This document shows, one piece after another, positions 1 to 62,366 of a stretch of 64,000 bases of DNA. The position numbers and the translations under genes were made by a program. The notes beneath the pieces were generated by a model. That model was not told the origin of the DNA. It did not search any database and worked only from the letters and a program-made list of their open reading frames with translations. How positions within the stretch are numbered: position 1 is the first letter of the stretch; every line of letters starts with the position of its first letter. This DNA is from an uncultured virus (IMG/VR IMGVR_UViG_2061766007_000682) (taxonomy: Duplodnaviria; Heunggongvirae; Uroviricota; Caudoviricetes): IMG/VR virus record IMGVR_UViG_2061766007_000682; one strand, 5' to 3'.

Positions 1-195
1 CAAAAACGATTACTGAGAATGGCACTTATAATGCATCCGATGATCACGCAGATGGATATTCTGATGTGATCGTTAATGTTCCAAGTAGTGGAGCTCAGTA
101 TNNNNNNNNNNCCAGACAGAGAGCGAGGTAAATTATTTGAACATGGCGGATCGTCTTAGTATGTAACGCCTTAGTAATCTAATATTAGTGTAAAG

Positions 196-235
196 AGAGG
201 GGGTCTGGTCTATTTCGGCTAGGCCCCTTTTTTCT
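196..235 (+). terminator. Intrinsic terminator-like hairpin
   Basis: GGGGTCTGGTC / GGCTAGGCCCC stem followed by a T-run, downstream of a truncated ORF end. Confidence 0.65.
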
Positions 236-255
236 GCTAATTATATTTTTAACTC

Positions 256-437
256 TTTAGAGGCTTTAATGGGGTGATCGGCAACTCACTTTCTGGGATT
301 TTATTGCCCACCTTAGCATAATCACTTGCTGTTTACTCCTTTTGAGATTTTACGTTCTTCCACCACATTTTATAATACTCGTACCCAATCCCATTATAAA
401 TGTGGTCTCAGTCGGTCACTCCACTAAAGCCTCTAAA
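256..437 (+). ncRNA. Putative structured ncRNA, copy A (~180 nt)
   Basis: 256-282 pairs with 411-437 (26 of 27 pairs, 3 G-U); internal hairpin CCACATTT(T)ATAAT/ATTATAAATGTGG; arms resemble 42682-42861. Confidence 0.65.
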
Positions 438-456
438 TAGAAGGTGGTGAATAATA

Positions 457-768
457 ATGGCTAATACCAAGAAATCGCCGCCCGCTTATACAGATGATGA
501 ACGAGAGAAACAGTTAATTGCCTTAGCTTATGATGAGGTTGAAAGGCGTATTCGCAACCATGAAGCAACATCACAAGAGCTTGTACATTTTTTAAAGATG
601 GGTTCCAGCCGAGAGAAGCAGGAACGAAAGATTATGGAAAAGAATGAAGAGCTACTTGGAGCTAAGACAGAATCTATACAGAATCAGAAGAGTACTGAGA
701 TATTTATGCAGGATGCTCTTCTTGCGTTTAAGGTTTATGCAGGTGATGAAGATGGACAGAAGCTATAG
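457..768 (+). CDS. Putative terminase small subunit
   Basis: 103 aa helical ORF with RBS AAGGTGGTGA, first gene of the packaging module. Confidence 0.5.
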   Translation: MANTKKSPPAYTDDEREKQLIALAYDEVERRIRNHEATSQELVHFLKMGSSREKQERKIMEKNEELLGAKTESIQNQKSTEIFMQDALLAFKVYAGDEDGQKL

Positions 769-3444: not shown

Positions 3445-4032
3445 TTGAGACACGATGAATTAGCACATTATGGTGTCCGCGGTATGAAATGGCGTTTCAA
3501 GAAAGGCATTACTGTTGATCCATCTAATAAGAATGTTAGAATTAAAAGACCTAATGGTGATGTTCGTGTTGAAAGAGAAAAGAACATTTCAATGACCGGG
3601 CCAAATCATAGATTAAGAACCTCCGAGAGAGATGTCGAAAAGAAAACAGAAAAAGATGAATTTAGTAAAATGGCTAATGAAGCGGCTGAAAAAGATAGAA
3701 AAGACCGTGAGGCTCGTGAGCAGTCAGCTAGAGATGCTTACGATGAAGCTTTGCGTTTGGCAAAAGAAAGAGCTGGTAAATCCAGCGGATCTGGTGGATC
3801 TGGCTCTAGTTCTTATAAAGCTGATGATAAACCTGCTGCAAATGCAAAACCGGCAGCTAAAGATAATAAAGGAAGTAATGAAAAGAATGCTTATTATACC
3901 AAGAATGCTAGAGAGATTGAGAGTCAGTATGGCATGAAGCCACACGTTAATGTAATGAACGATGTTGGTAAAGATCCTGAAAAGAAGCAGATTCTCAATG
4001 AAATGAATAAACGGACGTATAAAAAACGGTGA
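3445..4032 (+). CDS. LxH(H/Y)G-tag protein 1
   Basis: N-terminus ELAHYGVRGMKW; basic low-complexity body; TTG start after AAGGAGG. Confidence 0.75.
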   Translation: MRHDELAHYGVRGMKWRFKKGITVDPSNKNVRIKRPNGDVRVEREKNISMTGPNHRLRTSERDVEKKTEKDEFSKMANEAAEKDRKDREAREQSARDAYDEALRLAKERAGKSSGSGGSGSSSYKADDKPAANAKPAAKDNKGSNEKNAYYTKNAREIESQYGMKPHVNVMNDVGKDPEKKQILNEMNKRTYKKR

Positions 4033-4049
4033 GGAAGGAGGATAATAGT

Positions 4050-4655
4050 ATGCGAGATTACGAGTTAGAGGAATTCCTCATGCACTATGGTGTTCCGGGT
4101 ATGAAACGTCCTAGAGGTCTTAAGTATAAGACAAGAGGAAGCACTAGTTTATATGCTAATAGACAGCGCCAAATGTATAGAAGAAATACAGGAGAATCTA
4201 AAGAAGGTTCTAAAGAAGATGGCAAATCTACAGAATGGCGTAAATGGAAAATTCTTAATGACACTAAAAATAATGTTCCTGGTACAGGAACGAATGATGA
4301 TAAGAAACCTAGTATGCCTCCAGTTCAGCAAAGACGCCTTGCGACAAAAAAACTACTGGAGAGGAATGTAATAAATAGCCCTGAAGGTATGTTTTATAGA
4401 ACTCATGAAAAGTTTAAGAACATGTTTAAACCAAAACAGAAAAAGTATAAAGATCCTTACGAAGTAATGAAAGAACGAGAAGATCGTTTAATAAAAAATC
4501 TTAAAGAAAAACATTTAACAAGATATGGTATGCGATATGCACCTAACGTAAATTCAAGAATTCAAAATCCTAAGAAAAAAATAGGATACAATAAAAGGTC
4601 TACGTTAATGCTTCATCGTAAAAATAGAGCACCAACGCACATGAAAGATATATGA
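4050..4655 (+). CDS. LxH(H/Y)G-tag protein 2
   Basis: N-terminus FLMHYGVPGMKRP; very basic body. Confidence 0.75.
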   Translation: MRDYELEEFLMHYGVPGMKRPRGLKYKTRGSTSLYANRQRQMYRRNTGESKEGSKEDGKSTEWRKWKILNDTKNNVPGTGTNDDKKPSMPPVQQRRLATKKLLERNVINSPEGMFYRTHEKFKNMFKPKQKKYKDPYEVMKEREDRLIKNLKEKHLTRYGMRYAPNVNSRIQNPKKKIGYNKRSTLMLHRKNRAPTHMKDI

Positions 4656-4670
4656 AAGGAGGGATGCTAA

Positions 4671-5414
4671 TTGAGAGATTACGATATGGAACGTTTTCTT
4701 ATGCATTACGGTGTTCCGGGTATGAAACGTCCTAAAGGACTTCGCTACAAAACTAGAGGAAGTACTAGTTTGTACGCAAACAGACAGCGTCAAATGCATG
4801 GTGAAGATAATGAGGACAATTCTGAAAGTACAGGAAATAAGTTCTTAGACATTCGGAAGAATCAGGAAAAACAGGCTAAGGAAGCTAAGAAAACAAAAGA
4901 ACAGATTGAAAAATATAGACGTGATAAATGGGTTGATGAATATTCGTCAAAGTTTTTTACTACTAAAGAAACTCCACATAGACAGCATTATAAGGAAGAA
5001 GTTAAGTCTCGTAAACTTGGTAATACTAAAGAACGAGATGACTATCTAAACAAAACAAAGAAATTTAGAGATATTCGGAAGAATCAGGAAGAGGCTATTA
5101 AAACAGCTAAACAGATTGAAAAGTATAGAAAAGATAAGGCCGAAGATGAAAAGCGGGCTAAAGTGAGACAAGAGGCTAAACAAAAAGAAGAAAATAAACG
5201 GAAATTTTTAGATATTCCTAAGAACATAGGAAAACAAGTTGAAGTTGCTAAAAAGCAGAAAAGAGTCAAAGAACAGCAATCTAAAAATGAGTTTAATAAA
5301 TCTGTTCTCGATTTGATCGATAGAAATAGAGCTGAAAGAAACGACGGAAAGATTCAGAGACTTAAAAAGAAGAGAACGTCTTCCAGTAAGTATGGACGTT
5401 CGCGACAGGGTTAA
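4671..5414 (+). CDS. LxH(H/Y)G-tag protein 3
   Basis: First ~42 aa nearly identical to the preceding gene; three internal KF(L/R)DI.KN repeats. Confidence 0.75.
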   Translation: MRDYDMERFLMHYGVPGMKRPKGLRYKTRGSTSLYANRQRQMHGEDNEDNSESTGNKFLDIRKNQEKQAKEAKKTKEQIEKYRRDKWVDEYSSKFFTTKETPHRQHYKEEVKSRKLGNTKERDDYLNKTKKFRDIRKNQEEAIKTAKQIEKYRKDKAEDEKRAKVRQEAKQKEENKRKFLDIPKNIGKQVEVAKKQKRVKEQQSKNEFNKSVLDLIDRNRAERNDGKIQRLKKKRTSSSKYGRSRQG

Positions 5415-5427
5415 GGGGTGATATACA

Positions 5428-6186
5428 ATGAAAAACGAACTATATCACCACGGTATAGACGGACAACGTTGGGGTGTTACTCATGGGCCGCCTTATCCAC
5501 TGTCAAGATCTGAGCATAGAGCTGTTGTTAAAAGTAAAAATGCTATGGAAAAACGTAATGTTTCTTACCGTAAGTCTAGAAAATTTGCTAAGCGAATGTC
5601 TGATGAAGATTTAAATGCCGCTATTGATAGACTTAGGAGAGAAGAGACCTATCGTCAGCTTGTTAGTAAAGATAAAACAGAAAAAGCTCTTAAAAGAGAG
5701 CATAAGCGAGCGAATAAAGAAGAAGTTAAACAGACCAAAGCTCTTAAAAAGGCTCAAGAGCCGACTAAGCCAAAAAATCAAAATGATGGTGTTCTTAAGA
5801 AATCTGTTAAGGAAGCCCTTGGCGGAGGAATTAAGACCATGGGAAATGCTGGCTTCCAGGCTTTAGCTAAAACTATTTGGCCAGATGAAAAGAAAGAAGA
5901 TCAACCACAAGTTGAATACTTTGTTGATAAAGATGGAACCATAAATATTAAAAGTTTAAAAGGAAATACTGCAACTCTTACACCAGATATAGTGAGTATG
6001 ATGCTAGCTAATCAAAAGCAGATGAATTTTAAAGCGCCAAATAATACGAACAATACTTCAACTACGGCTTCTACAAGTAATAATCCTGGAACTGCTTATG
6101 CTGTTCCTAAAGACGAAAATAGAAACCGAATGCTTAAAAATGTATGGAATACAGGATACGATGAGATACAAGATTCTTGGGATTAA
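5428..6186 (+). CDS. LxH(H/Y)G-tag protein 4
   Basis: ELYHHGIDGQRWGVTHGPPYPL; MSDEDL...I.RL..E..Y helix motif. Confidence 0.8.
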   Translation: MKNELYHHGIDGQRWGVTHGPPYPLSRSEHRAVVKSKNAMEKRNVSYRKSRKFAKRMSDEDLNAAIDRLRREETYRQLVSKDKTEKALKREHKRANKEEVKQTKALKKAQEPTKPKNQNDGVLKKSVKEALGGGIKTMGNAGFQALAKTIWPDEKKEDQPQVEYFVDKDGTINIKSLKGNTATLTPDIVSMMLANQKQMNFKAPNNTNNTSTTASTSNNPGTAYAVPKDENRNRMLKNVWNTGYDEIQDSWD

Positions 6187-7473: not shown

Positions 7474-9769
7474 CTTTTGTGGTTATGCTACTCGGTACAA
7501 TGTAAAGTGCACCGATGGTAGAACTATTAAGTCTAATGCTTTTGCGCATTGCGATGGAGCAACGGTTCCGTTGATGTTCCAGCACGGTCATAACGATCCT
7601 GCTAACATTGTTGGTAACTGCTTGCTCGAATCCAGATCGGATGGTATGTACTGTTATGGTAGCTTCAATGATACTGTAAGCGGTGAAACTATGCGTGAAT
7701 GCGTAGAGCATGGAGACATTAATAGTCTGTCTATCTATGCGAATCATCTTCAGCAGAATAATGCACTTGAAGTGTTCCATGGAGACATTAAAGAAGTAAG
7801 TCTCGTGCTTGCTGGAGCAAACATTGGAGCTTACATCGAAGATGTCAACATTGAGCATGGCGAAGACGGCGAATCTGAGGCTATTGTTTATATGCCGGAA
7901 GAGGAGTGCCAGTTTGAGTTGTCTCATGCTGATTCAGATGAAGAAGGATCTAAGGAAACTACTAAGAAAACTGTTGGTTCTATCGTTGAAACTATGAATA
8001 AAGAACAGCAGGATGTTCTGATGTGGCTTCTGAATCAGGCGGCTGAAGGCAAACTCGATCTCAACATGGCACATTCGGATGAGGATTCTGAGTATGAAGA
8101 CGAGCATGAAGATGCTGAAGATTCTGAGTATGAGGATGACGATTCCGAGTATGAGGACGATGAAGAGTACGAAGATGACGAAGCCGAAGATGAAGAGTAC
8201 GAAGATGATGAAGAAGATTCAGAGTACGAAGATGATGAAGATGATGACGAAGATGATGACGAAAATCAAAATGATGATCTCGAACATTACGACGAAAACG
8301 ATGAAGGAGGAAACAACGAAATGAAGAGAAATGTTTTCGAAGAAAAGAGAAGCGCTGATCAGATTACACATGCTGATTTCGCACAGATCGTTCAGGATGC
8401 TGTAGTTAATAAGGCGACCCTGTCCGATTCTATCCTTATGCATGCTGACGATTATGGTATCCAGGACATCGAATCTCTGTTCCCGGATCCGAAGGACATC
8501 AACATGCCGCCGGAGTGGGTAAAGCCGGAAAATGCTTGGGTTCCGACAGTTCTCAATGGCGTATCTCACACTCCGTTCTCCCGTATCCGCACACGTTTTG
8601 CTGATATCACTGCTGATGAAGCTCGTGCTAAGGGTTATGTAAAGGGCAACAGAAAGAAGGACGAGGTATTCTCGCTGCTTAAGAGAGAAACAACACCTTG
8701 CACCATCTACAAGAAACAGAAGCTCGATCGCGATGATATCATCGATATTACTGATTTCGATATCGTTCCGTGGATCAAGAGCGAAATGCGTATGATGCTC
8801 GATCTGGAAAAGGCTATGGCTATTCTTACAGGTGATGGTCGTTCTGCATATGATGAGGATAAGATTCCTGAGGATCATATCAGACCGATTTGGAAGGATG
8901 ACGAACTGTATACTATCCGTCGCCCGGTTTATTTCCCGGAAAATGCTAGTGATACAGATAAGACAGAAATCCTCCGTCAGACAATCCTCCGTTCCCGCAA
9001 GGACTACAAGGGTTCTGGTAACATGACTCTGTTCTGCAGCCCGGATTGGCTCACAACTATGCTTCTGGCTAAGGACGGTTTCAATCATCCGCTGTACAAG
9101 TCCGATTCTGAGCTTGCTGCTGCTCTCCGTGTATCTAAGATCGTAGAAGTTCCGCAGTTTGACGATAAGGTTTATACAGATTCTGACAACAATGAGTATG
9201 ATCTCGTTGCTATCCTTGTTAACCTGGCTGACTATAAGGTTGGTGCTGATCGTGGCGGCAATACTGAGATGTTCGATGACTTCGATATCGACTTCAACCA
9301 GTATAAGTACCTGATGGAGTGCCGTTTCTCTGGTGCTCTGACGAAGCTGCGTTCTGCAATCGTTGTTGAGGCTGCTCATTATCCGATGCTTAAGATCGCT
9401 GTAGAAGCTGCTGCTCCGAATACTGATCTTCTTGGTAAGACAGCTGCTGAACTGCAGTCTGGTGTACGTATCAATGATCTCGGTGAGATCCGTGGTACTC
9501 TTAAGTATGTTACTAACTATGATGGTTTCGAGCAGGGTGCTCAGGGCAACTTCATCGGTCTCAAGTTTGATACTGATGAGGGTGCTACAACTACTGTTGA
9601 GATCATCGGCGGTACTTCTGGCCCGACGACACTCGATTCTGACAATCTCTGGGTTGGCAAGATCGCTAACAAGCAGCAGAAGATTCGTGTAATCACAACT
9701 AAGGATGGTTCCACAAATACTGTAATCTATAGTCTGAAGTACATTAATCTTGAGGCTAAGAGGGACTAA
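7463..9769 (+). CDS. Prohead protease - acidic linker - major capsid protein fusion
   Basis: N-terminal HK97-type protease (FCGYA, FQHGH, LSI, EVSLV), D/E-rich linker, capsid domain, C-terminal beta-rich extension. Confidence 0.9.
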   Translation: MKYDFCGYATRYNVKCTDGRTIKSNAFAHCDGATVPLMFQHGHNDPANIVGNCLLESRSDGMYCYGSFNDTVSGETMRECVEHGDINSLSIYANHLQQNNALEVFHGDIKEVSLVLAGANIGAYIEDVNIEHGEDGESEAIVYMPEEECQFELSHADSDEEGSKETTKKTVGSIVETMNKEQQDVLMWLLNQAAEGKLDLNMAHSDEDSEYEDEHEDAEDSEYEDDDSEYEDDEEYEDDEAEDEEYEDDEEDSEYEDDEDDDEDDDENQNDDLEHYDENDEGGNNEMKRNVFEEKRSADQITHADFAQIVQDAVVNKATLSDSILMHADDYGIQDIESLFPDPKDINMPPEWVKPENAWVPTVLNGVSHTPFSRIRTRFADITADEARAKGYVKGNRKKDEVFSLLKRETTPCTIYKKQKLDRDDIIDITDFDIVPWIKSEMRMMLDLEKAMAILTGDGRSAYDEDKIPEDHIRPIWKDDELYTIRRPVYFPENASDTDKTEILRQTILRSRKDYKGSGNMTLFCSPDWLTTMLLAKDGFNHPLYKSDSELAAALRVSKIVEVPQFDDKVYTDSDNNEYDLVAILVNLADYKVGADRGGNTEMFDDFDIDFNQYKYLMECRFSGALTKLRSAIVVEAAHYPMLKIAVEAAAPNTDLLGKTAAELQSGVRINDLGEIRGTLKYVTNYDGFEQGAQGNFIGLKFDTDEGATTTVEIIGGTSGPTTLDSDNLWVGKIANKQQKIRVITTKDGSTNTVIYSLKYINLEAKRD

Positions 9770-12113: not shown

Positions 12114-12134
12114 ATTAATGGAGGAATGTAAAAA

Positions 12135-12563
12135 ATGTTTAAGAAAACCGTAACTTATGAAGATTTTAATGGCGAAGAGAGAACAGAAACCCTATACTTT
12201 AATCTCACAAAGACGGAACTTGCAAAGCTTGAATACTCCCATGGTGGAGGTCTTACTGAATGGATCAGACGAGCAGTTGAAGCAAAAGATGGCAAGACTT
12301 TGCTCGAGACATTCGAAGAAATTATCAAAGCAACCTATGGCGTTAAGTCCGCAGATGGTAAGACATTTATGAAGTCTGATGCTATCTTTGAGGAATTTAA
12401 GGCTACTAATGCATACGACCAGCTTTACATGGAACTGGTCACAGACGGCGAAAAGGCGGCCCAGTTTATTATTGAGTGCATGCCTAAGGAACTCCGCGAT
12501 AAAGCGGCCGCCGAAGTAAAAAAACAAACTGATGCTAATGCCATCAAGAAAGTAGAGTCCTAA
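12135..12563 (+). CDS. Tail assembly chaperone
   Basis: Y.DFNG.ER.E..YFNL motif; lies between tail tube and tape measure genes. Confidence 0.75.
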   Translation: MFKKTVTYEDFNGEERTETLYFNLTKTELAKLEYSHGGGLTEWIRRAVEAKDGKTLLETFEEIIKATYGVKSADGKTFMKSDAIFEEFKATNAYDQLYMELVTDGEKAAQFIIECMPKELRDKAAAEVKKQTDANAIKKVES

Positions 12564-30589: not shown

Positions 30590-30892
30590 GTGGACTGGAA
30601 AGTACAAGTTGTATTAACTATTGTTACTTCTGTCCTTGCATCCTCAGGTGTATGGGCAGTCGTGGCTAGGATTTTCGATAACAGAAGTGTTAGAACACAA
30701 ATGTTAATTGGACTAGGGCACGATAGAATATGCTTCTTAGGACAGGAGTATATCAAACGTGGATATATTTATACAGATGAGTATGAAAATCTCCACGACT
30801 ACCTATACCAACCATATGCAAAGATGGGCGGTAATGGAACTGCTAAAAGAATAATGGACGAAGTTTCTAAATTGGAGGTGAGGACACGATGA
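30590..30892 (+). CDS. Holin-like membrane protein
   Basis: N-terminal TM helix, Y..MGGNG motif, directly after endolysin. Confidence 0.65.
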   Translation: MDWKVQVVLTIVTSVLASSGVWAVVARIFDNRSVRTQMLIGLGHDRICFLGQEYIKRGYIYTDEYENLHDYLYQPYAKMGGNGTAKRIMDEVSKLEVRTR

Positions 30893-31879
30893 AATATTGG
30901 AGAACAGCCGACCTGGATAATACTCCTAATTATCTAATGCATCATGGTATTCAAGGTCAGAAGTGGGGAGTATCCCATGGACCGCCGTATCCGCTTGGTA
31001 GCGATGTTAGCACTGGTAATAAGCTTAAAACTAAAGTGGTATCTAATTTGCCTCATAAGAGAATATCTGCCAACCGTATGAGAAATTATACAAAGTCTGA
31101 ACAGGCTCGTATTTCAGAAGGACAGACAATGGGAGCTNNNNNNNNNNNNNNNNNNNNNNNNNNNNNNNNAGAGGCATATTAATAGGGAAAATGCAGGACT
31201 TCGTGACAAGAAATACACAAACGATGAACGTGTTCGTATCAATAATGCTTATGAGACAACTGGTTTAATAGGAACTGCCATAAGTAGACATAATGTTAAG
31301 AAAGAAAATAAACAGGCTGCTCAGAAAGAAGCGCTTAGTGTAGTAGATAATATGAATGGCTTTAACAAGGAAGACTTTGAGGTCTCTAAAACAAAGAGGA
31401 CTAAAGATGGTAATAATTATATTATTGAGGTTAGTCATAAAGAAGATCCAGAAATGAGTATGTTTGTTAAAGTAACAAAGGATAAGAATTCGGGAAAGAT
31501 GTCAGTATCTAATATTGGTCTTACTGAGGAAGATGCCAAGTCTGGAAGCAAGGGAAGCAATGCTGAAAAGATTAAGGCTAAGTCTGATTCTTATGATACT
31601 AAGCCTGCCACNNNNNNNNNNNNNNNNNNNNNNNNNNNNNNNNNCATCTAGTAAGTCACGGGACGACAAGCAGAAAAACGCTATTGTAAGTAAGATGAAT
31701 GAACGCGGTGGCAAATTTGCTGGTATTGATAAAGATTCACTTACTAGAGTAAAAGATAGTAGAGAAACTTATGATAATCCAAATGGTACTACCGGAATTA
31801 CTGAAATGTGGACTGATGGCCATGGAAATTATTTTACTNNNNNNNNNNAGAAACAATAGATCAGATAGTAAGAGAATAA
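30889..31879 (+). CDS. LxH(H/Y)G-tag protein 5 (interrupted by gaps)
   Basis: YLMHHGIQGQKWGVSHGPPYPL; an open frame continues between three N gaps to TAA at 31879; end uncertain. Confidence 0.6.
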
Positions 31880-31894
31880 AGGAGGATTATATTT

Positions 31895-32746
31895 ATGATT
31901 TATAAACAGCCTCCTTCTTGGCTTGCTCATCATGGCGTTGAAGGGCAACGTTGGGGTGTTAAACATGGGCCTCCTTATCCGTTAGATGATGATATTAGTA
32001 CTGGAAGTAGATTAAAAATCTCTACAAATAATGATTTTACTGATAAGGATAATTTACGTGTAAAGCATGTTACTCACGTTTATGGTAAACGTAAGGGTCG
32101 TAAAGAAAAGAGCAAGATTTTAAAAGAAAAACAAAGAATAAATGAGAATCAGCAATATTTATATGACAACTATGAAAAAGAAGTAATTGATTATTTAGAT
32201 AAGGCGGATGCTTTTGATAAAAAGTATCGTTCTTTATTTGATGAATATTATGATAATCGAGATAAATACGCCGAAATAGCAGCTAATATAGCTTACGATA
32301 AATGGTCACCTAAATATTCGGATGTTTCTTCTAAAGATTATGACCGAGCTTTTTGGATTTATGGTTATGTAATGGATGATCTTGATCAAGGTAACGATTC
32401 TTCTCAGAGTTTATTTTTTCTTGATAAAAAGAGAAAAAATTATGATAAATTCATGGATCAATACTTGGAAGATAAAGAAATTATGGATGATTCTCGCAGA
32501 AAGCTTTATGATGCTTTGAAAGAAGAACATGGCACTAAACATAAATCTACTAGTACTGTTATAGAGGCTCATGATACATTAGACAAAATTTTAAAAGACA
32601 ACGGTCTTCCAGAAGATTTAGATTATGTAATGTACGAAGCGTATAAAATGGATGATTCAAATTGGAGAAAAGAGCTTTTGGCTGGTATTGACAAATACAA
32701 AGATTCTTCCTTTGATTGGGAACGAATATTAAATGAACAAGAATAA
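31895..32746 (+). CDS. LxH(H/Y)G-tag protein 6
   Basis: WLAHHGVEGQRWGVKHGPPYPL followed by an acidic helical domain. Confidence 0.8.
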   Translation: MIYKQPPSWLAHHGVEGQRWGVKHGPPYPLDDDISTGSRLKISTNNDFTDKDNLRVKHVTHVYGKRKGRKEKSKILKEKQRINENQQYLYDNYEKEVIDYLDKADAFDKKYRSLFDEYYDNRDKYAEIAANIAYDKWSPKYSDVSSKDYDRAFWIYGYVMDDLDQGNDSSQSLFFLDKKRKNYDKFMDQYLEDKEIMDDSRRKLYDALKEEHGTKHKSTSTVIEAHDTLDKILKDNGLPEDLDYVMYEAYKMDDSNWRKELLAGIDKYKDSSFDWERILNEQE

Positions 32747-32758
32747 AGGAGGCCAACA

Positions 32759-33007
32759 ATGACAGACAATCAGAAAAAGTGGTTTAAAGCAGCTGGAATT
32801 CGTGCTCTCAAGACATTCCTGCAGGTAGCTGCCGGTTTCATCACCGTAGGAGCTGCTATCAGCGACATTAAATGGGGAGTGATGTTCTCTACCGCTTTCG
32901 TAGCAGGATTATATTCTCTCATTACAAGTGTAATCACAGGTCTTCCTGAAGCACCGGCAGGATTTAAAGAGGACGAGGATAATAACAATGGACCGACAGA
33001 TACCTAA
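32759..33007 (+). CDS. Holin (r1t-like)
   Basis: W.KAA.IRALKTF.Q, two TM segments, GLPE end. Confidence 0.8.
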   Translation: MTDNQKKWFKAAGIRALKTFLQVAAGFITVGAAISDIKWGVMFSTAFVAGLYSLITSVITGLPEAPAGFKEDEDNNNGPTDT

Positions 33008-33932
33008 TTGGTTAGCTCATCATGGTGTCCAGGGGCAAAAATGGGGGATCAAACATGGTCCTCCATACCCCATCGGTTCGCATCCTAGAAAAGTATTTGT
33101 ATCCGGAACATCTAAATTCAAAGGTAAGTTACCAAAAGAGATAACTAGTAAACTGGATAATTATATTCAGAATAACTACCACATATTAATCGGGGATGCA
33201 CCGGGTATTGATACTGAAGTCCAAAAATATCTGGCGAAGAAAAATCATAGAAATGTTACAATTTATACGATTGAGAACGAACCTAGATTTCAAGCTACGA
33301 ACGATTTAGGTTGGGGAGTTAAGAAAGTCGAGGCTCCTGAATCGGAGATCGTAGACGGGTATAATCCTGCTCAGGTCTATAAGGACAAAGCTATGGCTAA
33401 GGATGCACATATTGGATTGGCAATCCCTATTGAAAACGGTGCTAAAGCTACACGTAAAAATATTGAAAGATTAGAGGGATCCGGCAAGTCGGTAGATGTT
33501 ATCGAACTTGGTACGGACGGGTATAACTCCGAGCAAAAGAACGTTAATTCTTGGGGCAAATCTAAAGACAATAACATATTATATATTTCCGGTAAAGCAG
33601 GAAGTGGAAAATCTTCTAAAGCCTTATCCATGTCTAATAATGTTATACATTTGGATTTCTATTTCGAGCCAGGTTATGAGAAGTATCAGTCTAAGGATTT
33701 CAACAAATATCTTAAACAGCACTTTCCCAATTACAAAGACTTATTAAATAAGGATAAGAACTTTGGAAAGAATCTTGAGAAGTTTGAAAACGTTATTCAA
33801 GATTATGGTAAGTATGCTTTTAACAATGGCGAATCTGTCGTGGTAGAAGGTTTACAGTTACTTGATGGAACTTTATTTCCAGATAGTAATTATTTCAACG
33901 ATAAACCTTATATTTTAATGACAAAAGAATAA
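32988..33932 (+). CDS. LxH(H/Y)G-tag protein 7 with SLOG-like and P-loop kinase-like domains
   Basis: WLAHHGVQGQKWG; VFVSG...IGDAPGID...KD.AM...T..NI (SLOG-like); ISGKAGSGKS Walker A, VVVEG. Confidence 0.75.
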   Translation: MDRQIPNWLAHHGVQGQKWGIKHGPPYPIGSHPRKVFVSGTSKFKGKLPKEITSKLDNYIQNNYHILIGDAPGIDTEVQKYLAKKNHRNVTIYTIENEPRFQATNDLGWGVKKVEAPESEIVDGYNPAQVYKDKAMAKDAHIGLAIPIENGAKATRKNIERLEGSGKSVDVIELGTDGYNSEQKNVNSWGKSKDNNILYISGKAGSGKSSKALSMSNNVIHLDFYFEPGYEKYQSKDFNKYLKQHFPNYKDLLNKDKNFGKNLEKFENVIQDYGKYAFNNGESVVVEGLQLLDGTLFPDSNYFNDKPYILMTKE

Positions 33933-33968
33933 AGGCATCGGATGAAAATCTGGTGTCTTTATTTTTTT
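33931..33968 (+). terminator. Terminator at end of the late region
   Basis: AAAGGCATCGGAT / ATCTGGTGTCTTT stem plus T-run. Confidence 0.8.
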
Positions 33969-33996
33969 CGCGTGGAAAACTGATGGTATTATAGAA
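33967..33996 (+). promoter_or_regulatory. TTCGCR-N17-TATRRAA element (first of the array)
   Basis: Same motif at 34201, 34416, 34773, 35353, 35623, 36063, 36672, 37382, 37564, 37902; gap-truncated at 35057 and 35738. Confidence 0.85.
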
Positions 33997-34019
33997 GAAC
34001 AATAATTGGAGGTGATCTT

Positions 34020-34181
34020 ATGACAAAATTAGAGAGATTGATGATCAGACTTGAAGGGATAGCTAAAAATACAGCTTTCTCTGAGAGATCAGGAATCAGC
34101 TATGATAAAGAAGGAACAAAGGAAGAACTGGAAAACATTATTGGAAAAATCTACGAAGAACTGGATAAGGTAGCGGAGTAA
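34020..34181 (+). CDS. Cassette microprotein (53 aa, helical), ends KVAE
   Basis: RBS GGAGGTGAT; stop codon lies in the loop of the downstream hairpin. Confidence 0.75.
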   Translation: MTKLERLMIRLEGIAKNTAFSERSGISYDKEGTKEELENIIGKIYEELDKVAE

Positions 34182-34242
34182 TATCTGCTCCTTATCTTTT
34201 TTCGCATTATATTCTAACCTTAATATGAAAGGAGGTGATAAC

Positions 34243-34398
34243 ATGAGAACATGCTCGAATTGCAAGTATTCTAAGGTGAATCACGAAGCAGATACTTTTT
34301 ACTGTAAAGTACACTGCGACGATACACCTAAGGAATACGGGGAGAACATGTACTGCGATTATCACGTGTTTAAACCAAGAAGAGAAGGCGCAGAGTAA
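34243..34398 (+). CDS. Cassette microprotein (51 aa, Cys/His-rich), ends EGAE
   Basis: RBS AAAGGAGGTGAT; C..C.Y...C...C..H pattern. Confidence 0.75.
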   Translation: MRTCSNCKYSKVNHEADTFYCKVHCDDTPKEYGENMYCDYHVFKPRREGAE

Positions 34399-34455
34399 TC
34401 TGCCCTTCTTATTTTTTCGCATTATATTCTGTCTCCTATATAGGAGGTGATAAGT

Positions 34456-34731
34456 ATGAACGAATTTGAAAATAAAGTAATAAATGGTATATTTGTTTCA
34501 CAATATGTAGCCGCATGGGTTAAAGAGTGTGGTGGATGTGAATATCATTACATCAAAAAAGATGGAAAGATAGAACGTGTTTGGCCGTTTAGAAAATGGT
34601 TAGAACAGCTTCTTATCAATGGAAGACATCTTACCGATGATGAGGTGAGATTCATAACCAACTTTGCAACTAACGGCAAATTGGAGTTGGAGGCAAATGC
34701 ACGACATTTTAATTCAGAAACAGAACCTTAA
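34456..34731 (+). CDS. Cassette protein, copy 1 of a duplicated gene
   Basis: FENK.INGI..SQYVAAW...NGKLELE; paralogue at 36347. Confidence 0.85.
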   Translation: MNEFENKVINGIFVSQYVAAWVKECGGCEYHYIKKDGKIERVWPFRKWLEQLLINGRHLTDDEVRFITNFATNGKLELEANARHFNSETEP

Positions 34732-34734
34732 GAT

Positions 34735-34774
34735 TAAGGAGGTTACGGACGAAAGTCCGGCCTCTTTATTTTTT
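34735..34774 (+). terminator. Type B hairpin GGAC-GAAA-GTCC
   Basis: Near-identical copy at 36635-36673; related hairpin at 54480. Confidence 0.8.
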
Positions 34775-34822
34775 CGCGCCAACTCCCGGGATCTATATAG
34801 AACATATAAGGAGGATAAAACT

Positions 34823-35017
34823 ATGAAAAAGGTTTATATTGTTACTTACAACAGAGTCGATGCTAAGGGCGTCGTAATCCTGAATGAGATTTGGCATGTT
34901 TCGTCAAGTCTTGGAAGAGCTAAGTGCTGGTGTTGGGATCACCGGCATGTAGAATATATCAACAAGAACGAGAGCGCCAAACTCATCATTGAGGAAGTCG
35001 AAGTCGACGATGAGTGA
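34823..35017 (+). CDS. Cassette microprotein (64 aa)
   Basis: RBS AAGGAGG; MKKVYIV...SS...A...IEEVEVD small phage beta-alpha-beta pattern. Confidence 0.75.
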   Translation: MKKVYIVTYNRVDAKGVVILNEIWHVSSSLGRAKCWCWDHRHVEYINKNESAKLIIEEVEVDDE

Positions 35018-35022
35018 GAGCA

Positions 35023-35058
35023 ATAAGGACGCAGAGTAATCTGCTCCTTATATTTTTT
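35023..35058 (+). terminator. Type A hairpin TAAGGA-C-GCAGA-GTAA-TCTGC-TCCTTA
   Basis: Identical core at 36247, 36861 and 37532; variants at 34165 and 34384. Confidence 0.85.
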
Positions 35059-35112
35059 CGCNNNNNNNNNNNNNNNNNNNNNTATAAAAATAATTTTTAG
35101 GAGGAAACAACT

Positions 35113-35274
35113 ATGAAAAACGAAATGGAAATGAAAAAGGATATGGTAACTCGGCTTAACAAGACCATTGAGGGACTGGAGAACCAGAAACTCAATGCGA
35201 AAAATGCTGAGGAATGGCAATTCCTTGACAAATTGGAACGTAGTTTTCAGGAAGAACTAGATGCAGTAACATAA
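35113..35274 (+). CDS. Cassette microprotein (53 aa, coiled)
   Basis: RBS AGGAGG; MKNEMEMKKDMVTRL...DAVT. Confidence 0.7.
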   Translation: MKNEMEMKKDMVTRLNKTIEGLENQKLNAKNAEEWQFLDKLERSFQEELDAVT

Positions 35275-35402
35275 AGGAATTATTATTCAATGATACGGAG
35301 CGTTAACAGCGCTCTTTATCTTTTTCGTTTACAAATCTATCTATTATATTTTTTCGCGCCAAAAACACACCTCCATATAGAACAACAAAGGAGGACAAAA
35401 CT

Positions 35403-35579
35403 ATGAAAAGAGCAATGTTAATTAAGTTGGTAGTTGGATGTATCATTCTTACATCTGGTTGTGGAGGAGACAAAACTGAAACAACTAAGAAGAAAGAAGA
35501 TAGACTTCCAAATGCCACTTATTGGGAAGATGTCTTGGTAGAAGAAACCTTAGTTGAAGAAACAATTATCGGGTGGTGA
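35403..35579 (+). CDS. Cassette lipoprotein-like microprotein (58 aa)
   Basis: MKR, hydrophobic stretch, lipobox-like LTSG-C; stop TGA lies inside the downstream hairpin. Confidence 0.7.
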   Translation: MKRAMLIKLVVGCIILTSGCGGDKTETTKKKEDRLPNATYWEDVLVEETLVEETIIGW

Positions 35580-35604
35580 AATATCCACCCTTTAATTTTT
35601 TTTT
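35571..35604 (+). terminator. Type C hairpin GGGTGG-TGAAATAT-CCACCC
   Basis: Identical copy at 37354-37383. Confidence 0.8.
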
Positions 35605-35649
35605 GCCGACAAACCTGGCACGGACGCGTTATATTCTGCTACTAATATG

Positions 35650-35730: not shown

Positions 35731-35794
35731 ATATTTTTTCGCGTAGAAAACGGTTCTNNNNNNNNNNNNNNNNNNNNNNNNNNNNNNNNNNATT

Positions 35795-36262: not shown

Positions 36263-36346
36263 TCTGCTCCTTATTTTTTTTTTTTTTNNNNNNNNNNNNN
36301 NNNNNNNNNNNNNNNNNNNNNNNNNNNNNNNNNNNNGGAATGTAAA

Positions 36347-36631
36347 ATGGACGAATTTGAGAACAAAGTTATAAATGGAATATTTACCTCACAGTATGTA
36401 GCCGCGTGGGTTAAAGAGCGTGGTGAATGCGGATATCATTACATCAAGAAAGATGGAAAGATAGAGCGTGTTTGGCCGTTTAAAAAATGGTTAGAACAGC
36501 TTCTTATCAATGGAAGGCATCTTACTGATGATGAAGTCCGATTCATTACGAACTTTGCCACTAACGGTAAACTAGAACTGCAGGCAAATGCACAACATTT
36601 TAGTTTTAATGACGAAATGGTAGAACCTTAG
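36347..36631 (+). CDS. Cassette protein, copy 2 of a duplicated gene
   Basis: Highly similar to 34456-34731. Confidence 0.85.
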   Translation: MDEFENKVINGIFTSQYVAAWVKERGECGYHYIKKDGKIERVWPFKKWLEQLLINGRHLTDDEVRFITNFATNGKLELQANAQHFSFNDEMVEP

Positions 36632-41799: not shown

Positions 41800-42136
41800 C
41801 ATTTGCCCTAATTGCGGTGCTGCTATGATACTTAATGGTTATAGATGGCATTGCGATTATTGTGGTACAGAAGTCGATGACATGGGACAAATAATTGTAC
41901 GTGTCGAGAATCCAAAAATTAAGGTCGCTGCTTCGAAGGTTGCCGTCGATAGAATGATACTTGAATTATACCCTGAAGAAGTAGAAAAGCATGCTAAAAT
42001 GGAAACATGTAGGCAATTAGCTGAGTTTCTATTCGAGAATGATCTCGTGGATTTTGAGGAAACATTCGATCCTGTATTAGCTCAACAAGTATATTTAGGC
42101 AAATTCAGATACGTAGACAAAGGAGTAAAACTATGA
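41789..42136 (+). CDS. Zinc-ribbon protein
   Basis: CPNCGA...CDYCG. Confidence 0.75.
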   Translation: MKHNICPNCGAAMILNGYRWHCDYCGTEVDDMGQIIVRVENPKIKVAASKVAVDRMILELYPEEVEKHAKMETCRQLAEFLFENDLVDFEETFDPVLAQQVYLGKFRYVDKGVKL

Positions 42137-42681: not shown

Positions 42682-42861
42682 GTTTTAGAAGCCTTAGTGA
42701 GGTGGCCGGTTTTGCCGTAATTNNNNNNNNNNNNNNNNTGGTTTGTTGTTCTCCAGTAAGTATCTGTGGTGCCTGAACGATACTTACACTAAAAGACGTA
42801 TTATATTTCCACGTCTATAAAAAAAGATTTCGACCGGCCATCTCATTAAGGTTTCTAAGAC
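42682..42861 (+). ncRNA. Putative structured ncRNA, copy B (~180 nt)
   Basis: 42682-42710 pairs with 42833-42861 (29 of 29 pairs, 4 G-U); internal hairpins GTAAGTATC/GATACTTAC and AGACGT/ACGTCT. Confidence 0.7.
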
Positions 42862-45224: not shown

Positions 45225-45257
45225 CTATATTAGTGTATTTAAAGGAGGAATGTAAAA

Positions 45258-45530
45258 ATGGCAAACGATTTTAGTTTTGATGAGCAACAGGCATTAGAAG
45301 AACAGAAGCATCGCAATAAGATGAAAGAAATTCTTTTGCAGAATAGATGCGACAAGAATCTGGAAACGATGAAAGCTGATAATCAGCAGAAGCTCGAAGA
45401 GCAGAAAGCTAAGACAGCTAAGAAGATCNNNNNNNNNNNNNNNNNNNNNNNNNNNNNNNNNNNNNNNNNNNNNNNNNNNNNNNNNNNNNNNNNNAAGAAA
45501 TGTACCTCGGGAGAAATGAAAACTAAATAG
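45258..45530 (+). CDS. Coiled-coil hypothetical protein (solitary cassette, gap)
   Basis: RBS AAAGGAGG; followed by type D hairpin 45539-45576. Confidence 0.65.
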   Translation: MANDFSFDEQQALEEQKHRNKMKEILLQNRCDKNLETMKADNQQKLEEQKAKTAKKIXXXXXXXXXXXXXXXXXXXXXXKKCTSGEMKTK

Positions 45531-52990: not shown

Positions 52991-54076
52991 ATGAGACTGG
53001 ATGATTGTTCAGAATTTCGCGGACATAGGCTAAAAAGTTGCTCAAGATGCGGGCATCTGTTTGATGGGCTTAAGCTTACTAGATTGAATTGTGACCAATT
53101 AAATGCTATTAAAGACAAAGAATGGCAGTTTGGTTTTAAATGGAAACTGAGCGATTGGGCTGTTGGCGAAGCGGTTAAAGTGGATGTATGTCCTACATGC
53201 TATGCTGACATTATTAGTTTAATTAGTGCACATGAGCAGATTGATAAACTAACTATTGGCTATGCATCAGAGCATCCAGATTTTCTTGCTAAGCAGCTCA
53301 ACATTCCTGTGTGCAAATGCCAAATATGCCACAAGGAGTTGCCTAAGAATGGCTTCGTAAATATACCGCATTATATTACTTCTGATATATTAACGAATCC
53401 GGAGGATTATTTTGTGGAGTGGCCTAAATCTGAGAAACAAGCTTTTATAAATGTATTATCTGAATCGGCATATGTAAAAACAGTAAGAGTATGCCATCAA
53501 TGTTACGAAGGCCTTTTCCATGAATATCTTAATATTGAAGTACAAAGACTCAAGAAGGAAACTGATCATAAGGTACCGATTTATATCAATGGCGAGTATC
53601 AAGGAGAAGTATATGCAGAACCGTACAGAGTTGACACGTTACAAGGTTGCTGTATTAGAAAAAACGACATGGTAGATGCTGCAAGGTACACTTACGAAAA
53701 ATTACAACATGAAAGAAAAATACTTAAATTTAAATTGGAGGAACGTAAAATGAAAAACTTAAATGAAACAAAGACACACGCATTCGCAATTGAGAGAAAC
53801 TACGACGAGACTGATCGTAAGTTGTTTAGACTTGAAGACGCTGAAACAGGCGATTTTATCAGACTTGCTACGGACGAGGAGCGGCTCATTTACATGGTCG
53901 TAAACATCGCACCAGTCAAGAATCGCGTAAAAGTAAATGAAAAGTCAGAATCTAATTGCGTTTGGTGCGTATGCATTCAGACTCAGGATCTCGTAGCGTT
54001 AAATAGCGACGAGATGGTATATGTCTATGATCCCAGATACATCGCTTTCCGTATCGGACGTTTCATCGACGCGTAA
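52991..54076 (+). CDS. Multi zinc-finger protein, possible internal start at 53750
   Basis: CSRC/CPTC and CQIC/CHQC pairs; internal RBS GGAGG before in-frame ATG. Confidence 0.65.
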   Translation: MRLDDCSEFRGHRLKSCSRCGHLFDGLKLTRLNCDQLNAIKDKEWQFGFKWKLSDWAVGEAVKVDVCPTCYADIISLISAHEQIDKLTIGYASEHPDFLAKQLNIPVCKCQICHKELPKNGFVNIPHYITSDILTNPEDYFVEWPKSEKQAFINVLSESAYVKTVRVCHQCYEGLFHEYLNIEVQRLKKETDHKVPIYINGEYQGEVYAEPYRVDTLQGCCIRKNDMVDAARYTYEKLQHERKILKFKLEERKMKNLNETKTHAFAIERNYDETDRKLFRLEDAETGDFIRLATDEERLIYMVVNIAPVKNRVKVNEKSESNCVWCVCIQTQDLVALNSDEMVYVYDPRYIAFRIGRFIDA

Positions 54077-55334: not shown

Positions 55335-56321
55335 ATGGGATTCAAAGAAACTATTCTTGAGAAGACCGCAGGCGCAAGATTGTTCTACAAGGATCATCAG
55401 TCTGAGATTGAAATTGGAACTGGTATTGCGTGTTTCGCTCTGTCTGTTATCACAGCAGCTAGAGCAGGAATTAAAACAAAGAAGATCATTGATGATTACA
55501 ACAAAGCTGCATGCGAGGCCGAGGTGCATCGTCAGGAAGGCATGGTAACCGTTTGGTCTGACAATCAGCAGGAGATCATACCGTATACGGAAGAGGATTT
55601 TAAAAAGGAACTCCGTAACATCAAGCTTCGTACGGCCGGTAAGATCGCAGTAACATGGGCTCCTTCAGCTCTCGGCTTTGCCGGAGGTACAAGTCTTGTC
55701 CTGCATAGTCATCATCTAATGGCTCAATCTAACATTGCTCTTGCCGCTGCACTTAAGACAAGTGAAGAACAGCTTAAGAAGTACAGGGATAAGAATGCAG
55801 AAAAGATTGGCGAAGAAAAAGAACAGCAGGTGTATGACGGTCAGGAAACTGAGAAGAAAGGCAAGAAAGAGTATGTTCTTCAGGGCACACCGTTATCTAA
55901 ATATGCCAGACTGATGAGTAAGGATACGCTCGGTCGTTCTGCTGATTGGTGCAACAGCTCGTGCGATTATAATTTCGGACGTGTCAAGAGAATCAATGAG
56001 TGGGCAAATAGACAGCTTAAGATGAATGGCGTTGTAACACGAAGAGAAGTGTATGAAGCGCTTGGCTTCGATGTTACGAATGAAGATCCTGATTGTTCCG
56101 TAGATGGATGGAGACTGAAGAAATATGGTGGTAAGACTGATGAAGGTGGTATTGAGATCAGAATTATTGACCATATCGGTGGAGATCCTAATAATGTAAC
56201 CTATGTACGTGACGAGTTTGGGGACGGTTACGTACGTTCCGCGGATGCATTCTGGATTGATTTAAACTGTGAAGGTTGTATTCTTGCTGTTAGTACATTG
56301 AAGAAGCTTGGAGGAGCGTAA
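55335..56321 (+). CDS. Membrane-anchored phage protein, paralogue of 48103
   Basis: TM segments, YR......GEEKE, EVYEALG...GW, D.NC.G.I. Confidence 0.75.
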   Translation: MGFKETILEKTAGARLFYKDHQSEIEIGTGIACFALSVITAARAGIKTKKIIDDYNKAACEAEVHRQEGMVTVWSDNQQEIIPYTEEDFKKELRNIKLRTAGKIAVTWAPSALGFAGGTSLVLHSHHLMAQSNIALAAALKTSEEQLKKYRDKNAEKIGEEKEQQVYDGQETEKKGKKEYVLQGTPLSKYARLMSKDTLGRSADWCNSSCDYNFGRVKRINEWANRQLKMNGVVTRREVYEALGFDVTNEDPDCSVDGWRLKKYGGKTDEGGIEIRIIDHIGGDPNNVTYVRDEFGDGYVRSADAFWIDLNCEGCILAVSTLKKLGGA

Positions 56322-56322
56322 A

Positions 56323-56856
56323 ATGAAATATCTGAATGTTATAATTAGTTGTGTCTGTGCTATAGGCGGCGGCTTAGCTGGTTACTATTATGGTAAGCAG
56401 AAGGAAGTAAAAGCTTACGAAGCAGATATTGCATCATTAAAAGAAGAGTATCAGAAAAAGATCGATGAAGCCAAGAAAGCGGGGAGAATGGAGATGCTTA
56501 AGAATATGAGCAAAGGCCCAGTTGATGGTGAAGAACAGAAACTGAAGGAGAACGGGGATATTGATGATGAAATCGTTGAAGTTGTATCCGAGAACGATGC
56601 TCTTGATAGCCCCGTTATTGAAGACATTATATTTTTCGGTAAAGACAAAGTGTGGTGGAATCAGGATCGTGAGAAGACATACAATAACAACGATCCGTTT
56701 ACTATTCCAACAGATTTCTTTACATATTTTGGAGAAGATAAGGCGGATCTGATTTATCTTCATAACACGAAGACAAATGAGTACTTTGCCGTACGTTACA
56801 ATCCTGGATCCTATGTTTCTAATGTTCTCGGTTATGATGATACCTCTGATGATTGA
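56323..56856 (+). CDS. N-terminally anchored acidic protein
   Basis: GG.AGYYY anchor, coiled coil, FGE...D.IY..N. Confidence 0.7.
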   Translation: MKYLNVIISCVCAIGGGLAGYYYGKQKEVKAYEADIASLKEEYQKKIDEAKKAGRMEMLKNMSKGPVDGEEQKLKENGDIDDEIVEVVSENDALDSPVIEDIIFFGKDKVWWNQDREKTYNNNDPFTIPTDFFTYFGEDKADLIYLHNTKTNEYFAVRYNPGSYVSNVLGYDDTSDD

Positions 56857-61863: not shown

Positions 61864-61892
61864 AACATTTAAAATTTTAGGAGGATTTAAAA

Positions 61893-62366
61893 ATGAAAAT
61901 TAAGGTAATGAGACCCGCAAATGGTGGAAGAGATGTTTATGTTATTCAGAATGCTCAGCTTAAGTATAAGAACTTTAGTGGCAAGCAGGGCAAGTTCCCA
62001 GGATCTAGATCGGTCAACGTTCTTGTTGATGCTGAGGATAAGGCAATGATGGAAGCAAAGGGTCTCAGAGTTAATGAGAGAACTAATCCGCATACAAACG
62101 AAGTTGAGTATACAATTAGAATTAATGTTAAGATGCTTCCTGGCAACTCTCCGAAGATCACTCAGAGAACTGGTAANNNNNNNNNNNNNNNNGAAGTAAC
62201 TGTAGAAGCTCTCGACAGTGTTTCCATCAGCAAGGCAGATGTTGCCTGGACTTACGGTTTTGGAACAGGAAATCCCGTTGCTTACCTTAAGGAAATGAAT
62301 GTGGTTATTGTTCCTTCCATCTTTGCACCGGATGCGAATGATTATTACATGGAGACCCATGATTGA
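61893..62366 (+). CDS. Putative single-stranded DNA-binding protein
   Basis: NA....KNFSG...R, LD...I..AD, AYLK.M; position in replication module. Confidence 0.6.
   Translation: MKIKVMRPANGGRDVYVIQNAQLKYKNFSGKQGKFPGSRSVNVLVDAEDKAMMEAKGLRVNERTNPHTNEVEYTIRINVKMLPGNSPKITQRTGXXXXXXEVTVEALDSVSISKADVAWTYGFGTGNPVAYLKEMNVVIVPSIFAPDANDYYMETHD

What the first reader, a model, noticed from the sequence alone, without database searches (positions are those of the whole stretch)
256..437. ~180-nt structured RNA candidate A upstream of the packaging genes
Seen: intergenic 27-bp closing stem (26 pairs, 3 G-U) enclosing hairpins and a pyrimidine stretch TTTACTCCTTTT complementary to an AAGGAG Shine-Dalgarno. 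Its 5' arm TTTAGAGGCTTTAATGGGGTGATCGG resembles TTTAGAAGCCTTAGTGAGGTGGCCGG at 42684, with compensatory changes in the 3' arm. Inference: member of a phage ncRNA family; candidates include an SD-targeting sRNA, a 6S-sized polymerase decoy or a packaging-linked RNA.
Basis: partly seen in the sequence, partly recalled or inferred. Interest (0 to 1): 0.8.

Follow-up and report, generated by a model that had tools for sequence, protein, structure and literature searches.

The report
Phage RNA mirroring own ribosome sites
A widespread group of tailed phages keeps, at the start of its packaging genes, a long-stemmed folded RNA whose open loops are mirror images of the ribosome-landing sites of that phage's own non-structural genes, so it probably switches those genes off together, although no transcript has yet been seen.

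Summary
The structure is real (26 pairs, 3 G-U; z = -6.9) and has a second copy at 42682-42861. It belongs to an uncatalogued family in the Lactococcus 1706 / FP_oengus / Arthrobacter AM phage group: 81 of 92 usable homologous loci carry a ~30-bp closing stem. The stems differ in sequence, are G-U-biased on the + strand, and enclose an unpaired CUCCUUU word (53 of 56 clusters; 1.3 expected). The loops are more than generic anti-Shine-Dalgarno: they pair best with start regions of their own genome (rank 1 of 15 for 9 of 15 phages; held-out prophages rank 5, 1, 3, 5, 2 of 20), up to 19-20 contiguous pairs, mostly at non-structural genes. In five genomes ranked, the adjacent gene is not favoured. 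Best reading: a trans-acting, multi-target antisense RNA that blocks translation of a tagged gene set. 6S decoy, packaging RNA and MITE are not supported. Expression, processing and effect are unshown, and 4 of 15 genomes show no matching beyond the core. The scan noted this theme before in other phages (unchecked notes). This family includes cultured phages, so the unexplained 'start-associated sequences' become testable.

The parts
194..236 (+). Terminator-like hairpin with U run closing the upstream gene; it would separate the element from upstream transcription
242..248 (+). TATATTT word just before the stem; strand-biased in the window (71 on +, 9 on -); ATATTT lies within -30..+6 of the 5' arm in 30 of 54 clusters. 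Possible phage promoter or processing word (inferred, untested)
256..282 (+). 5' arm of the closing stem
294..331 (+). Two short interior hairpins (294-310, 314-331)
   Evidence: prediction
327..346 (+). Anti-RBS word 1 (family core CUCCUUU, open); complementary to start regions at 42133 (11 contiguous pairs), 63666 and 61893
347..362 (+). Anti-RBS word 2; 5 of its 6 best + strand complements in the window are SD-to-ATG stretches (53737, 56310, 45244, 12120, 36334)
   Evidence: segment chosen, so post hoc
362..406 (+). Long 3' interior hairpin
   Evidence: prediction
411..437 (+). 3' arm of the closing stem
457..768 (+). Adjacent gene, phrog_4259 (unknown function; sits before HNH, a virion protein and TerL; small-terminase role is my inference from position). 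Its start region is not a favoured partner (rank 30 of 91)
12120..12137 (+). Predicted target: start of phrog_4282 gene after the major tail genes; its homologue is also among the top matches in 1706 and G005, and a gene at the same position (about +10 kb) is in the top six of four held-out prophages
36334..36349 (+). Predicted target: start of ORF 36347-36631 (partly hidden by an N gap)
42119..42135 (+). Predicted target of word 1: start of ORF 42133-42360
42682..42861 (+). Copy B: paralogous 180-nt element, also after a terminator-like hairpin (42639-42680); 4 G-U, 0 A-C; its readable loop also ranks its own genome first of 15, weakly
45244..45260 (+). Predicted target: start of ORF 45258-45530
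53737..53752 (+). Predicted target: SD and in-frame ATG (53750) inside ORF 52991-54076, probably a second start
56310..56325 (+). Predicted target: start of ORF 56323-56856 (phrog_4695), two genes before the primase-polymerase
61873..61895 (+). Predicted target: start of the single-strand annealing/binding protein gene 61893-62366

Best explanation
The element is a small non-coding RNA of the + strand: a ~30-bp closing stem holds open a variable loop that shows one to five anti-ribosome-binding-site words. Each word is the mirror image of an extended ribosome-binding tag (SD plus flanks, sometimes the AUG) shared by several genes of the same phage, mostly non-structural genes that head transcription units. 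The RNA pairs in trans with these start regions, outcompetes the 16S tail and turns the tagged genes down together. Shown here: structure, covariation, strand, family, genome-matched complementarity, bias to non-structural genes. Inferred: transcription from a promoter just upstream, release or stabilisation through the long stem (RNase III-type cleavage), repression, and timing (shut-off of early/middle genes when the late operon starts, or silencing in the lysogen for temperate members).
For: Family: 81 of 92 upstream regions have a long inverted repeat, shuffles never reach the cut-off; 59 of 76 in an independent set from bacterial genome contigs. Strand: G-U 133 vs A-C 35 in 56 clusters, 41 clusters G-U>A-C, 2 the reverse. 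Core word in 53 of 56 loops (shuffled mean 1.3, max 4), more unpaired than the rest of the loop in 44 of 53, mid-loop, never on the other strand. Own-genome match: rank 1 of 15 for 9 of 15 elements (one tied), rank 1-2 for 11 (binomial 9e-8 if independent). With core words fixed and flanks shuffled, the real loop beats all 25 shuffles in 7 of 15 genomes including this one, and all but 1-2 in 4 more. Long matches: 20 contiguous pairs with 1706 orf27 and 23 pairs around one mismatch with orf52; 19 of 19 including the AUG in the prophage of L376. Top-5 matches lie in the structural module in 9 of 75 cases against 358 of 1154 start regions (p = 1.4e-4) and 252 of 1050 for foreign elements (p = 0.016); they follow gaps >50 nt in 42 of 75 vs 372 of 1079. 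Seven of the eight window duplexes computed give -16 to -22.5 kcal/mol against -8.7 to -12 for a recalled 16S tail; the eighth, cut by an N gap, -12.3 vs -3.3. In four prophages with host DNA, strong matches are 27 of 326 phage-region starts vs 7 of 292 host starts.
Against: No transcript: two rumen metatranscriptome contig sets give no cover over the element, at depth too low to mean anything. Four of 15 genomes (G001, G003, G008, G009) show no match beyond the core. Held-out ranks are weaker (5, 1, 3, 5, 2 of 20; two of the five elements are nearly identical). Across 56 clusters the loop pairs somewhat better with its own adjacent start than with other phages' adjacent starts (mean rank 0.63-0.68 vs 0.5), which fits a cis role or shared genome-wide tags. 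A close relative (L187, 95% identical adjacent protein) keeps the stem but has lost the loop. No element at the left end of Madamato, Fazel or ReqiPepy6. Start sites for uncultured genomes come from my own caller and module borders were set by hand. Most targets have no known function.
Confidence: 0.6

Rival explanations
1. A cis-acting 5' leader of the late (packaging/structural) operon: the stem is a stabiliser or RNase III site and the loop folds back on the adjacent ribosome-binding site to delay translation.
For: Fixed position 19-71 nt before the first late gene; modest own-adjacent preference over 56 clusters; 9-11-nt matches to the adjacent SD in some loci (read); L187 keeps the stem alone.
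Against: The adjacent start ranks 30 of 91, 45 of 76, 65 of 77, 21 of 86 and 41 of 64 among own starts in five genomes; in 1706 the adjacent gene is a different gene; copy B sits among non-structural genes; in the predicted fold of 250-480 the loop does not pair with the adjacent SD (no pseudoknots modelled).
Confidence: 0.15
2. A generic anti-Shine-Dalgarno sponge aimed mainly at host mRNAs (host translation shut-off); the match to phage genes only reflects shared SD habits.
For: The conserved core equals the recalled 16S 3' tail; four genomes show core-only matching; in L376 host starts match nearly as often as phage starts (5 of 68 vs 7 of 83, best host score 15).
Against: Flank-specific matches to own genes in 11 of 15 genomes; pooled host 7 of 292 vs phage 27 of 326 (only 80 kb of each host, and the start filters differed); late genes do not avoid the core word, so a generic sponge would hit them too.
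Confidence: 0.12
3. A by-product: inverted copies of repeated promoter/RBS cassettes captured in a stem, with no regulatory effect.
For: Some matches are long and exact, as copying would give; loop lost in L187, element absent in some clade members.
Against: Retained at one position across phages whose adjacent protein is 33-100% identical, with unrelated arm sequences, covarying pairs and G-U bias; word kept unpaired and mid-loop.
Confidence: 0.06
4. A DNA-level or packaging element (cruciform near the cos end, MITE, or phi29-like pRNA), or a 6S-like polymerase decoy.
For: In most loci it begins within tens of bases of the conserved left-end motif; copy A is 182 nt; two copies in one genome.
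Against: G-U over A-C bias; lengths 93-197 nt; no complementary loop word inside (0 of 56); no Rfam 6S or pRNA hit in the window or 36 homologous loci; displaced from the end in this clade and in copy B; packaging module intact in phages without it; no flanking target duplication seen at A or B.
Confidence: 0.07

Closest known systems
Start-associated sequences (SAS) of Cluster K mycobacteriophages (PMC3203893, passages) and of Microbacterium Cluster EF (PMC7302621, passages)
   Same: An extended, genome-private ribosome-binding tag before non-structural genes that follow larger gaps; role left open, an RNA or protein partner was proposed; K1 phages have one reversed copy. That copy lies in a predicted hairpin loop in an intergenic gap in Anaya and CrimD.
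   Different: Those papers describe the tag, not an RNA. Here the tags are looser and can be several per genome, and the mirror sits in a ~30-bp-stem RNA beside the packaging genes. No exact reversed core in the TM4 and Pixie stretches read.
c4 antisense RNA of phages P1/P7 (PMC12197685, passages); P4 CI RNA (recalled)
   Same: Phage-encoded structured RNA with target-complementary loops that blocks phage gene expression near a ribosome-binding site.
   Different: c4 acts on one operon (ant); no c4 Rfam hit here; this RNA is predicted to cover many unlinked genes and its loops change with each genome.
C/U-rich-loop sRNAs of bacteria: S. aureus RNAIII and RsaE, Listeria LhrC, cuckoo/alpha-r14 (recalled; cuckoo and LhrC also named notes)
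   Same: Several unpaired anti-SD words on one RNA pair with ribosome-binding sites of many mRNAs.
   Different: Host-encoded with conserved sequence; no Rfam match; here phage-encoded, closed by a long 5'/3' stem, with genome-matched flanks.
phi29 pRNA and 6S RNA (features recalled)
   Same: Size (about 180 nt for copy A), long 5'/3' closing helix, and for pRNA a place near the left genome end.

Membership tests
Any Rfam 15 family | Covariance-model match at gathering score | tested here: not met
   Window: tRNA only; element best E = 1.2; 0 hits in 20 loci at gathering and in 16 loci at E <= 0.05
Trans-acting anti-SD sRNA (RNAIII/RsaE/cuckoo type) | Conserved unpaired C/U-rich words complementary to SD sequences | tested here: met
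   53 of 56 clusters, predicted more open than the rest of the loop in 44 of 53; 25 of 56 have two or more words
Trans-acting anti-SD sRNA (RNAIII/RsaE/cuckoo type) | Extended pairing with specific unlinked mRNA starts | tested here: met
   Computational only; not met in 4 of 15 genomes
Trans-acting anti-SD sRNA (RNAIII/RsaE/cuckoo type) | Expressed as a discrete RNA that represses its targets | not testable with these tools
   Only low-depth RNA contigs were available; none covers the element
c4 / CI phage antisense RNA | Sequence and fold of the family; ant/icd-type linked target | tested here: not met
   No Rfam hit; predicted targets scattered
6S RNA | ~180-200-nt rod with central bubble; RF model match | tested here: not met
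   Multibranch loop; family 109-194 nt (5th-95th percentile); no hit
6S RNA | Binds RNA polymerase holoenzyme | not testable with these tools
   needs a pull-down
phi29-type pRNA | Complementary loops for ring formation; required by all phages with that motor | tested here: not met
   Complement of the conserved word in 0 of 56 loops (other loop-loop pairings not searched); absent at the left end in 3 of 8 cultured relatives, loop lost in L187
MITE | Terminal inverted repeats with target-site duplication, scattered near-identical copies, no strand bias | tested here: not met
   Two diverged copies only; G-U bias; fixed position with unrelated arms
Retron msr-msd | Linked reverse transcriptase | tested here: not met
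   No RT hit among 44 (PHROG) and 58 (Pfam) chosen ORFs of 203 listed; the genome continues beyond the window
RNase III-processed sRNA | Long double-stranded stem; cleavage in vivo | tested here: inconclusive
   Stem 23-39 pairs, mismatch most often at pair 17 (11 of 55); cleavage untested

The most novel reading that the evidence does not exclude
These phages run a re-programmable antisense switch: a constant long-stem scaffold into which mirror copies of the phage's own ribosome-binding tags are captured and swapped, so one RNA silences a whole, changing set of accessory and replication genes at the early-to-late switch or in the lysogen. It would be the missing RNA partner of phage start-associated sequences, arrived at separately in this group and in Cluster K1 mycobacteriophages.
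Probability: 0.3. Interest if true: 0.87.

Novelty: new variant of a known kind. Interest (0 to 1): 0.72.

Why it matters
Phage gene timing is usually explained by promoters and proteins; known phage antisense RNAs act on one or two messages. An RNA that addresses a whole gene set through a shared start tag would be a new layer of control and would give a concrete partner for the start-associated sequences left unexplained since 2011 (PMC3203893). The family spans phages of Bacillota and Actinomycetota and includes cultured phages (Lactococcus 1706, Arthrobacter Mudcat and Sporto, FP_oengus, BitterVaud1) with named predicted targets, so the test is direct.

Tried and rejected
No whole genome is held for the window. 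Nucleotide search of cultured phages found only 34-nt chance-level matches. A 15-mer arm pattern gave 120 matches, none with a convincing partner arm; a two-arm pattern gave 7 stretches, one already known (L267 = L128) and six without the stem. No relative of copy B: two chance matches without a stem and two spurious protein hits. 'Late genes escape by weaker SD' rejected: no difference for the core word in 7 genomes (p 0.18-1). tRNA-Glu anticodon mimic considered: the 3-bp mini-hairpin with a 7-nt loop occurs in 15 of 56 clusters and is explained by mirror tags (Mudcat). Minus-strand small ORF considered: no fixed start codon after the SD-like word. Expression: 24 runs listed, 2 RNA holders with small shares; their contigs do not cover the element, and DNA contigs also break at the stem, so this says nothing. 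A mid-genome stem with an anti-SD-like word in Gordonia phage Fazel does not match its own starts. Two first attempts at the structural/non-structural split had wrong borders in several genomes (12 of 75 vs 423 of 1154; 8 of 75 vs 284 of 1154) and were replaced. Literature searches (listings only) showed no description of this RNA; passages of 10.1101/842583 and PMC5513430 do not mention it. PMC10690425: passages read, 6 supplementary files searched without a hit, files 1, 2 and 4 could not be searched, so part of this family may be among its unnamed candidates. Subscription papers, including the original 1706 description, were not searchable.

Full report
1. Observation. The stem, its three G-U pairs, the pyrimidine stretch and the likeness to 42684 are all there. 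Rfam has nothing for it.

2. Setting. The window is most of a tailed phage genome with all large genes on the + strand: phrog_4259, HNH, TerL, portal, protease-capsid fusion, tail genes, then many small genes and a primase-polymerase. The gene after the element has relatives in 228 records of the phage collection, mainly Arthrobacter, Gordonia and Streptomyces phages, also Faecalibacterium and Bifidobacterium phages and Lactococcus phages. This is the group described in 10.1101/842583 (passages), which shares a putative YonO-like RNA polymerase; that gene would lie beyond the window's end. Identical DNA lies in a bovine gut metagenome run (X1). Many relatives are prophages in Lachnospiraceae and other Bacillota.

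3. Family. I fetched 58 viral and the best 80 of 141 metagenomic loci of the adjacent gene. After dropping duplicates 117 remained, 25 with under 200 nt upstream; of the other 92, 81 hold an inverted repeat scoring 14 or more, while one shuffle of each never passed 13. Median stem 30 pairs, median length 149 nt, 19-71 nt before the start. In the best 80 of 210 loci from bacterial genome contigs, 59 of 76 usable ones have it and 55 carry CTCCTTT. Arm sequences are unrelated between clades, loops vary freely, but over 56 sequence clusters G-U outnumbers A-C 133 to 35, which points to a + strand RNA, and 53 loops hold CUCCUUU, mid-loop and predicted open. Among 8 cultured relatives examined it is present in 1706, FP_oengus, Mudcat, Sporto (variant word) and BitterVaud1, and not at the left end of Madamato, Fazel or ReqiPepy6. 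In 1706 it precedes orf1, not the phrog_4259 gene, so it follows the head of the late region rather than one gene. Mostly it starts just after the conserved left-end motif; in this window's clade other genes and a terminator lie in front.

4. What the loops match. Earlier notes of this scan gave the lead to compare loops with the phage's own start regions. The adjacent gene is not favoured (ranks 30/91, 45/76, 65/77, 21/86, 41/64). Instead the loops mirror extended tags before unlinked genes: in 1706, 20 contiguous pairs with orf27, 23 around one mismatch with orf52, and a second loop with orf56; in Mudcat a 13-nt tag before gp27, gp44, gp76 and others. In a 15 x 15 test (10 IMG/VR records, the window, 4 cultured phages) the own genome ranked first for 9 elements and second for 2; the misses ranked 3, 4, 5 and 6. 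Keeping the SD-complementary cores and shuffling the flanks, the real loop beat all 25 shuffles in 7 genomes, all but one or two in 4, and showed nothing in 4. So the signal is not only the 16S-like core. Five held-out prophages ranked 5, 1, 3, 5, 2 of 20, two being near-duplicates and three sharing a tag with each other; one has a 19-of-19 match that covers the AUG. Best matches avoid the structural module (9 of 75; background 358 of 1154; foreign elements 252 of 1050) and prefer genes after gaps, as SAS genes do. The recurring exception is the phrog_4282 gene behind the major tail genes.

5. This window. Copy A ranks its own genome first (13.5 vs at most 12.5; 10 starts at score 11 or more) and beats 25 of 25 flank shuffles. 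Copy B also ranks its own genome first, weakly and with a gap in its loop; I found no relative of B.

6. Mechanism. Shown by computation: a covarying + strand stem, open anti-RBS words, genome-matched complementarity, bias to non-structural genes. Inferred: the RNA is made from a promoter near the TATATTT word or with the late operon, is freed or protected by its stem, pairs over SD and spacer more strongly than the 16S tail, and blocks initiation on the tagged genes, either at the switch to late expression or, in temperate members, in the lysogen. I put 0.6 on this. Against it: no expression data, four genomes without flank matching, a modest cis signal, loop loss in L187, and host mRNAs not excluded. 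Rivals: cis leader 0.15, host-directed sponge 0.12, DNA/packaging/6S 0.07, by-product 0.06.

7. Known systems. It works like c4 of P1/P7 (PMC12197685, passages) and like C-rich-loop sRNAs of Gram-positive bacteria (recalled) but is a member of none. The closest open question is the SAS of Cluster K (PMC3203893, passages) and Cluster EF (PMC7302621, passages). The single reversed site that Pope et al. noted in K1 phages lies in a predicted hairpin loop in an intergenic gap in Anaya (59870) and CrimD (58838); no exact reversed core was seen in the parts of TM4 and Pixie read. After reaching this I found that the scan had noted the same theme, and the SAS link, in at least eight other phage genomes; these notes are unchecked and are not counted as support. 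My searches of the paper library listed no description of this family; unread supplements of PMC10690425 and subscription papers may bear on that.

8. Verdict. Real, conserved, uncatalogued RNA family; new variant of a known kind; interest 0.72.

Noticed in passing
window 57461-57660: AT-rich nested inverted and direct repeats just before the primase-polymerase gene; comparable repeat-rich stems without a loop word occur in 1706, FP_oengus, Mudcat, Madamato, G004, G006 and G010. Candidate replication origin.
   Followed up: partly
window 33950-38000: Repeated cassettes of terminator hairpin plus a TTCGC-N17-TATA-type promoter-like word plus strong RBS in front of single small genes (families D11-D13, D15); probably early modules.
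   Followed up: no
window 35653-35728: tRNA-Val with anticodon AAC, unusual in bacteria (recalled).
   Followed up: no
window 49240-49330: tRNA-like 5' half (D-arm-like) running into an N gap; not called by ARAGORN or Rfam.
   Followed up: no
window 3445-6186, 30889-33932: Seven genes begin with the same short N-terminal motif (Pfam DUF7211; DNA repeat family D17).
   Followed up: no
window 52991-54076: Strong SD and in-frame ATG at 53750 inside a 361-codon ORF: fused genes or an internal start.
   Followed up: partly
window 8076-8300: Long Asp/Glu-rich tandem repeat inside the protease-capsid fusion gene.
   Followed up: no
L187 1405-1475: Close relative keeps the closing stem as a plain hairpin with the whole loop deleted.
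   Followed up: partly
L399 (Anaya 59870) and L400 (CrimD 58838): The reversed SAS of Cluster K1 sits in the loop of a conserved predicted hairpin in an intergenic gap.
   Followed up: partly
L284 26445-26616 (Fazel 36533-36704): Mid-genome 172-nt long-stem element with an anti-SD-like word that does not match the phage's own starts.
   Followed up: partly
L272 1-584 (Sporto): A second long stem (45-154) precedes the family element in a 580-nt gene-free left end.
   Followed up: no
L275 12286-12421, L274 9201-9336, L280 8960-9096: A long-range stem near the start of the TerL coding region recurs in three relatives.
   Followed up: no
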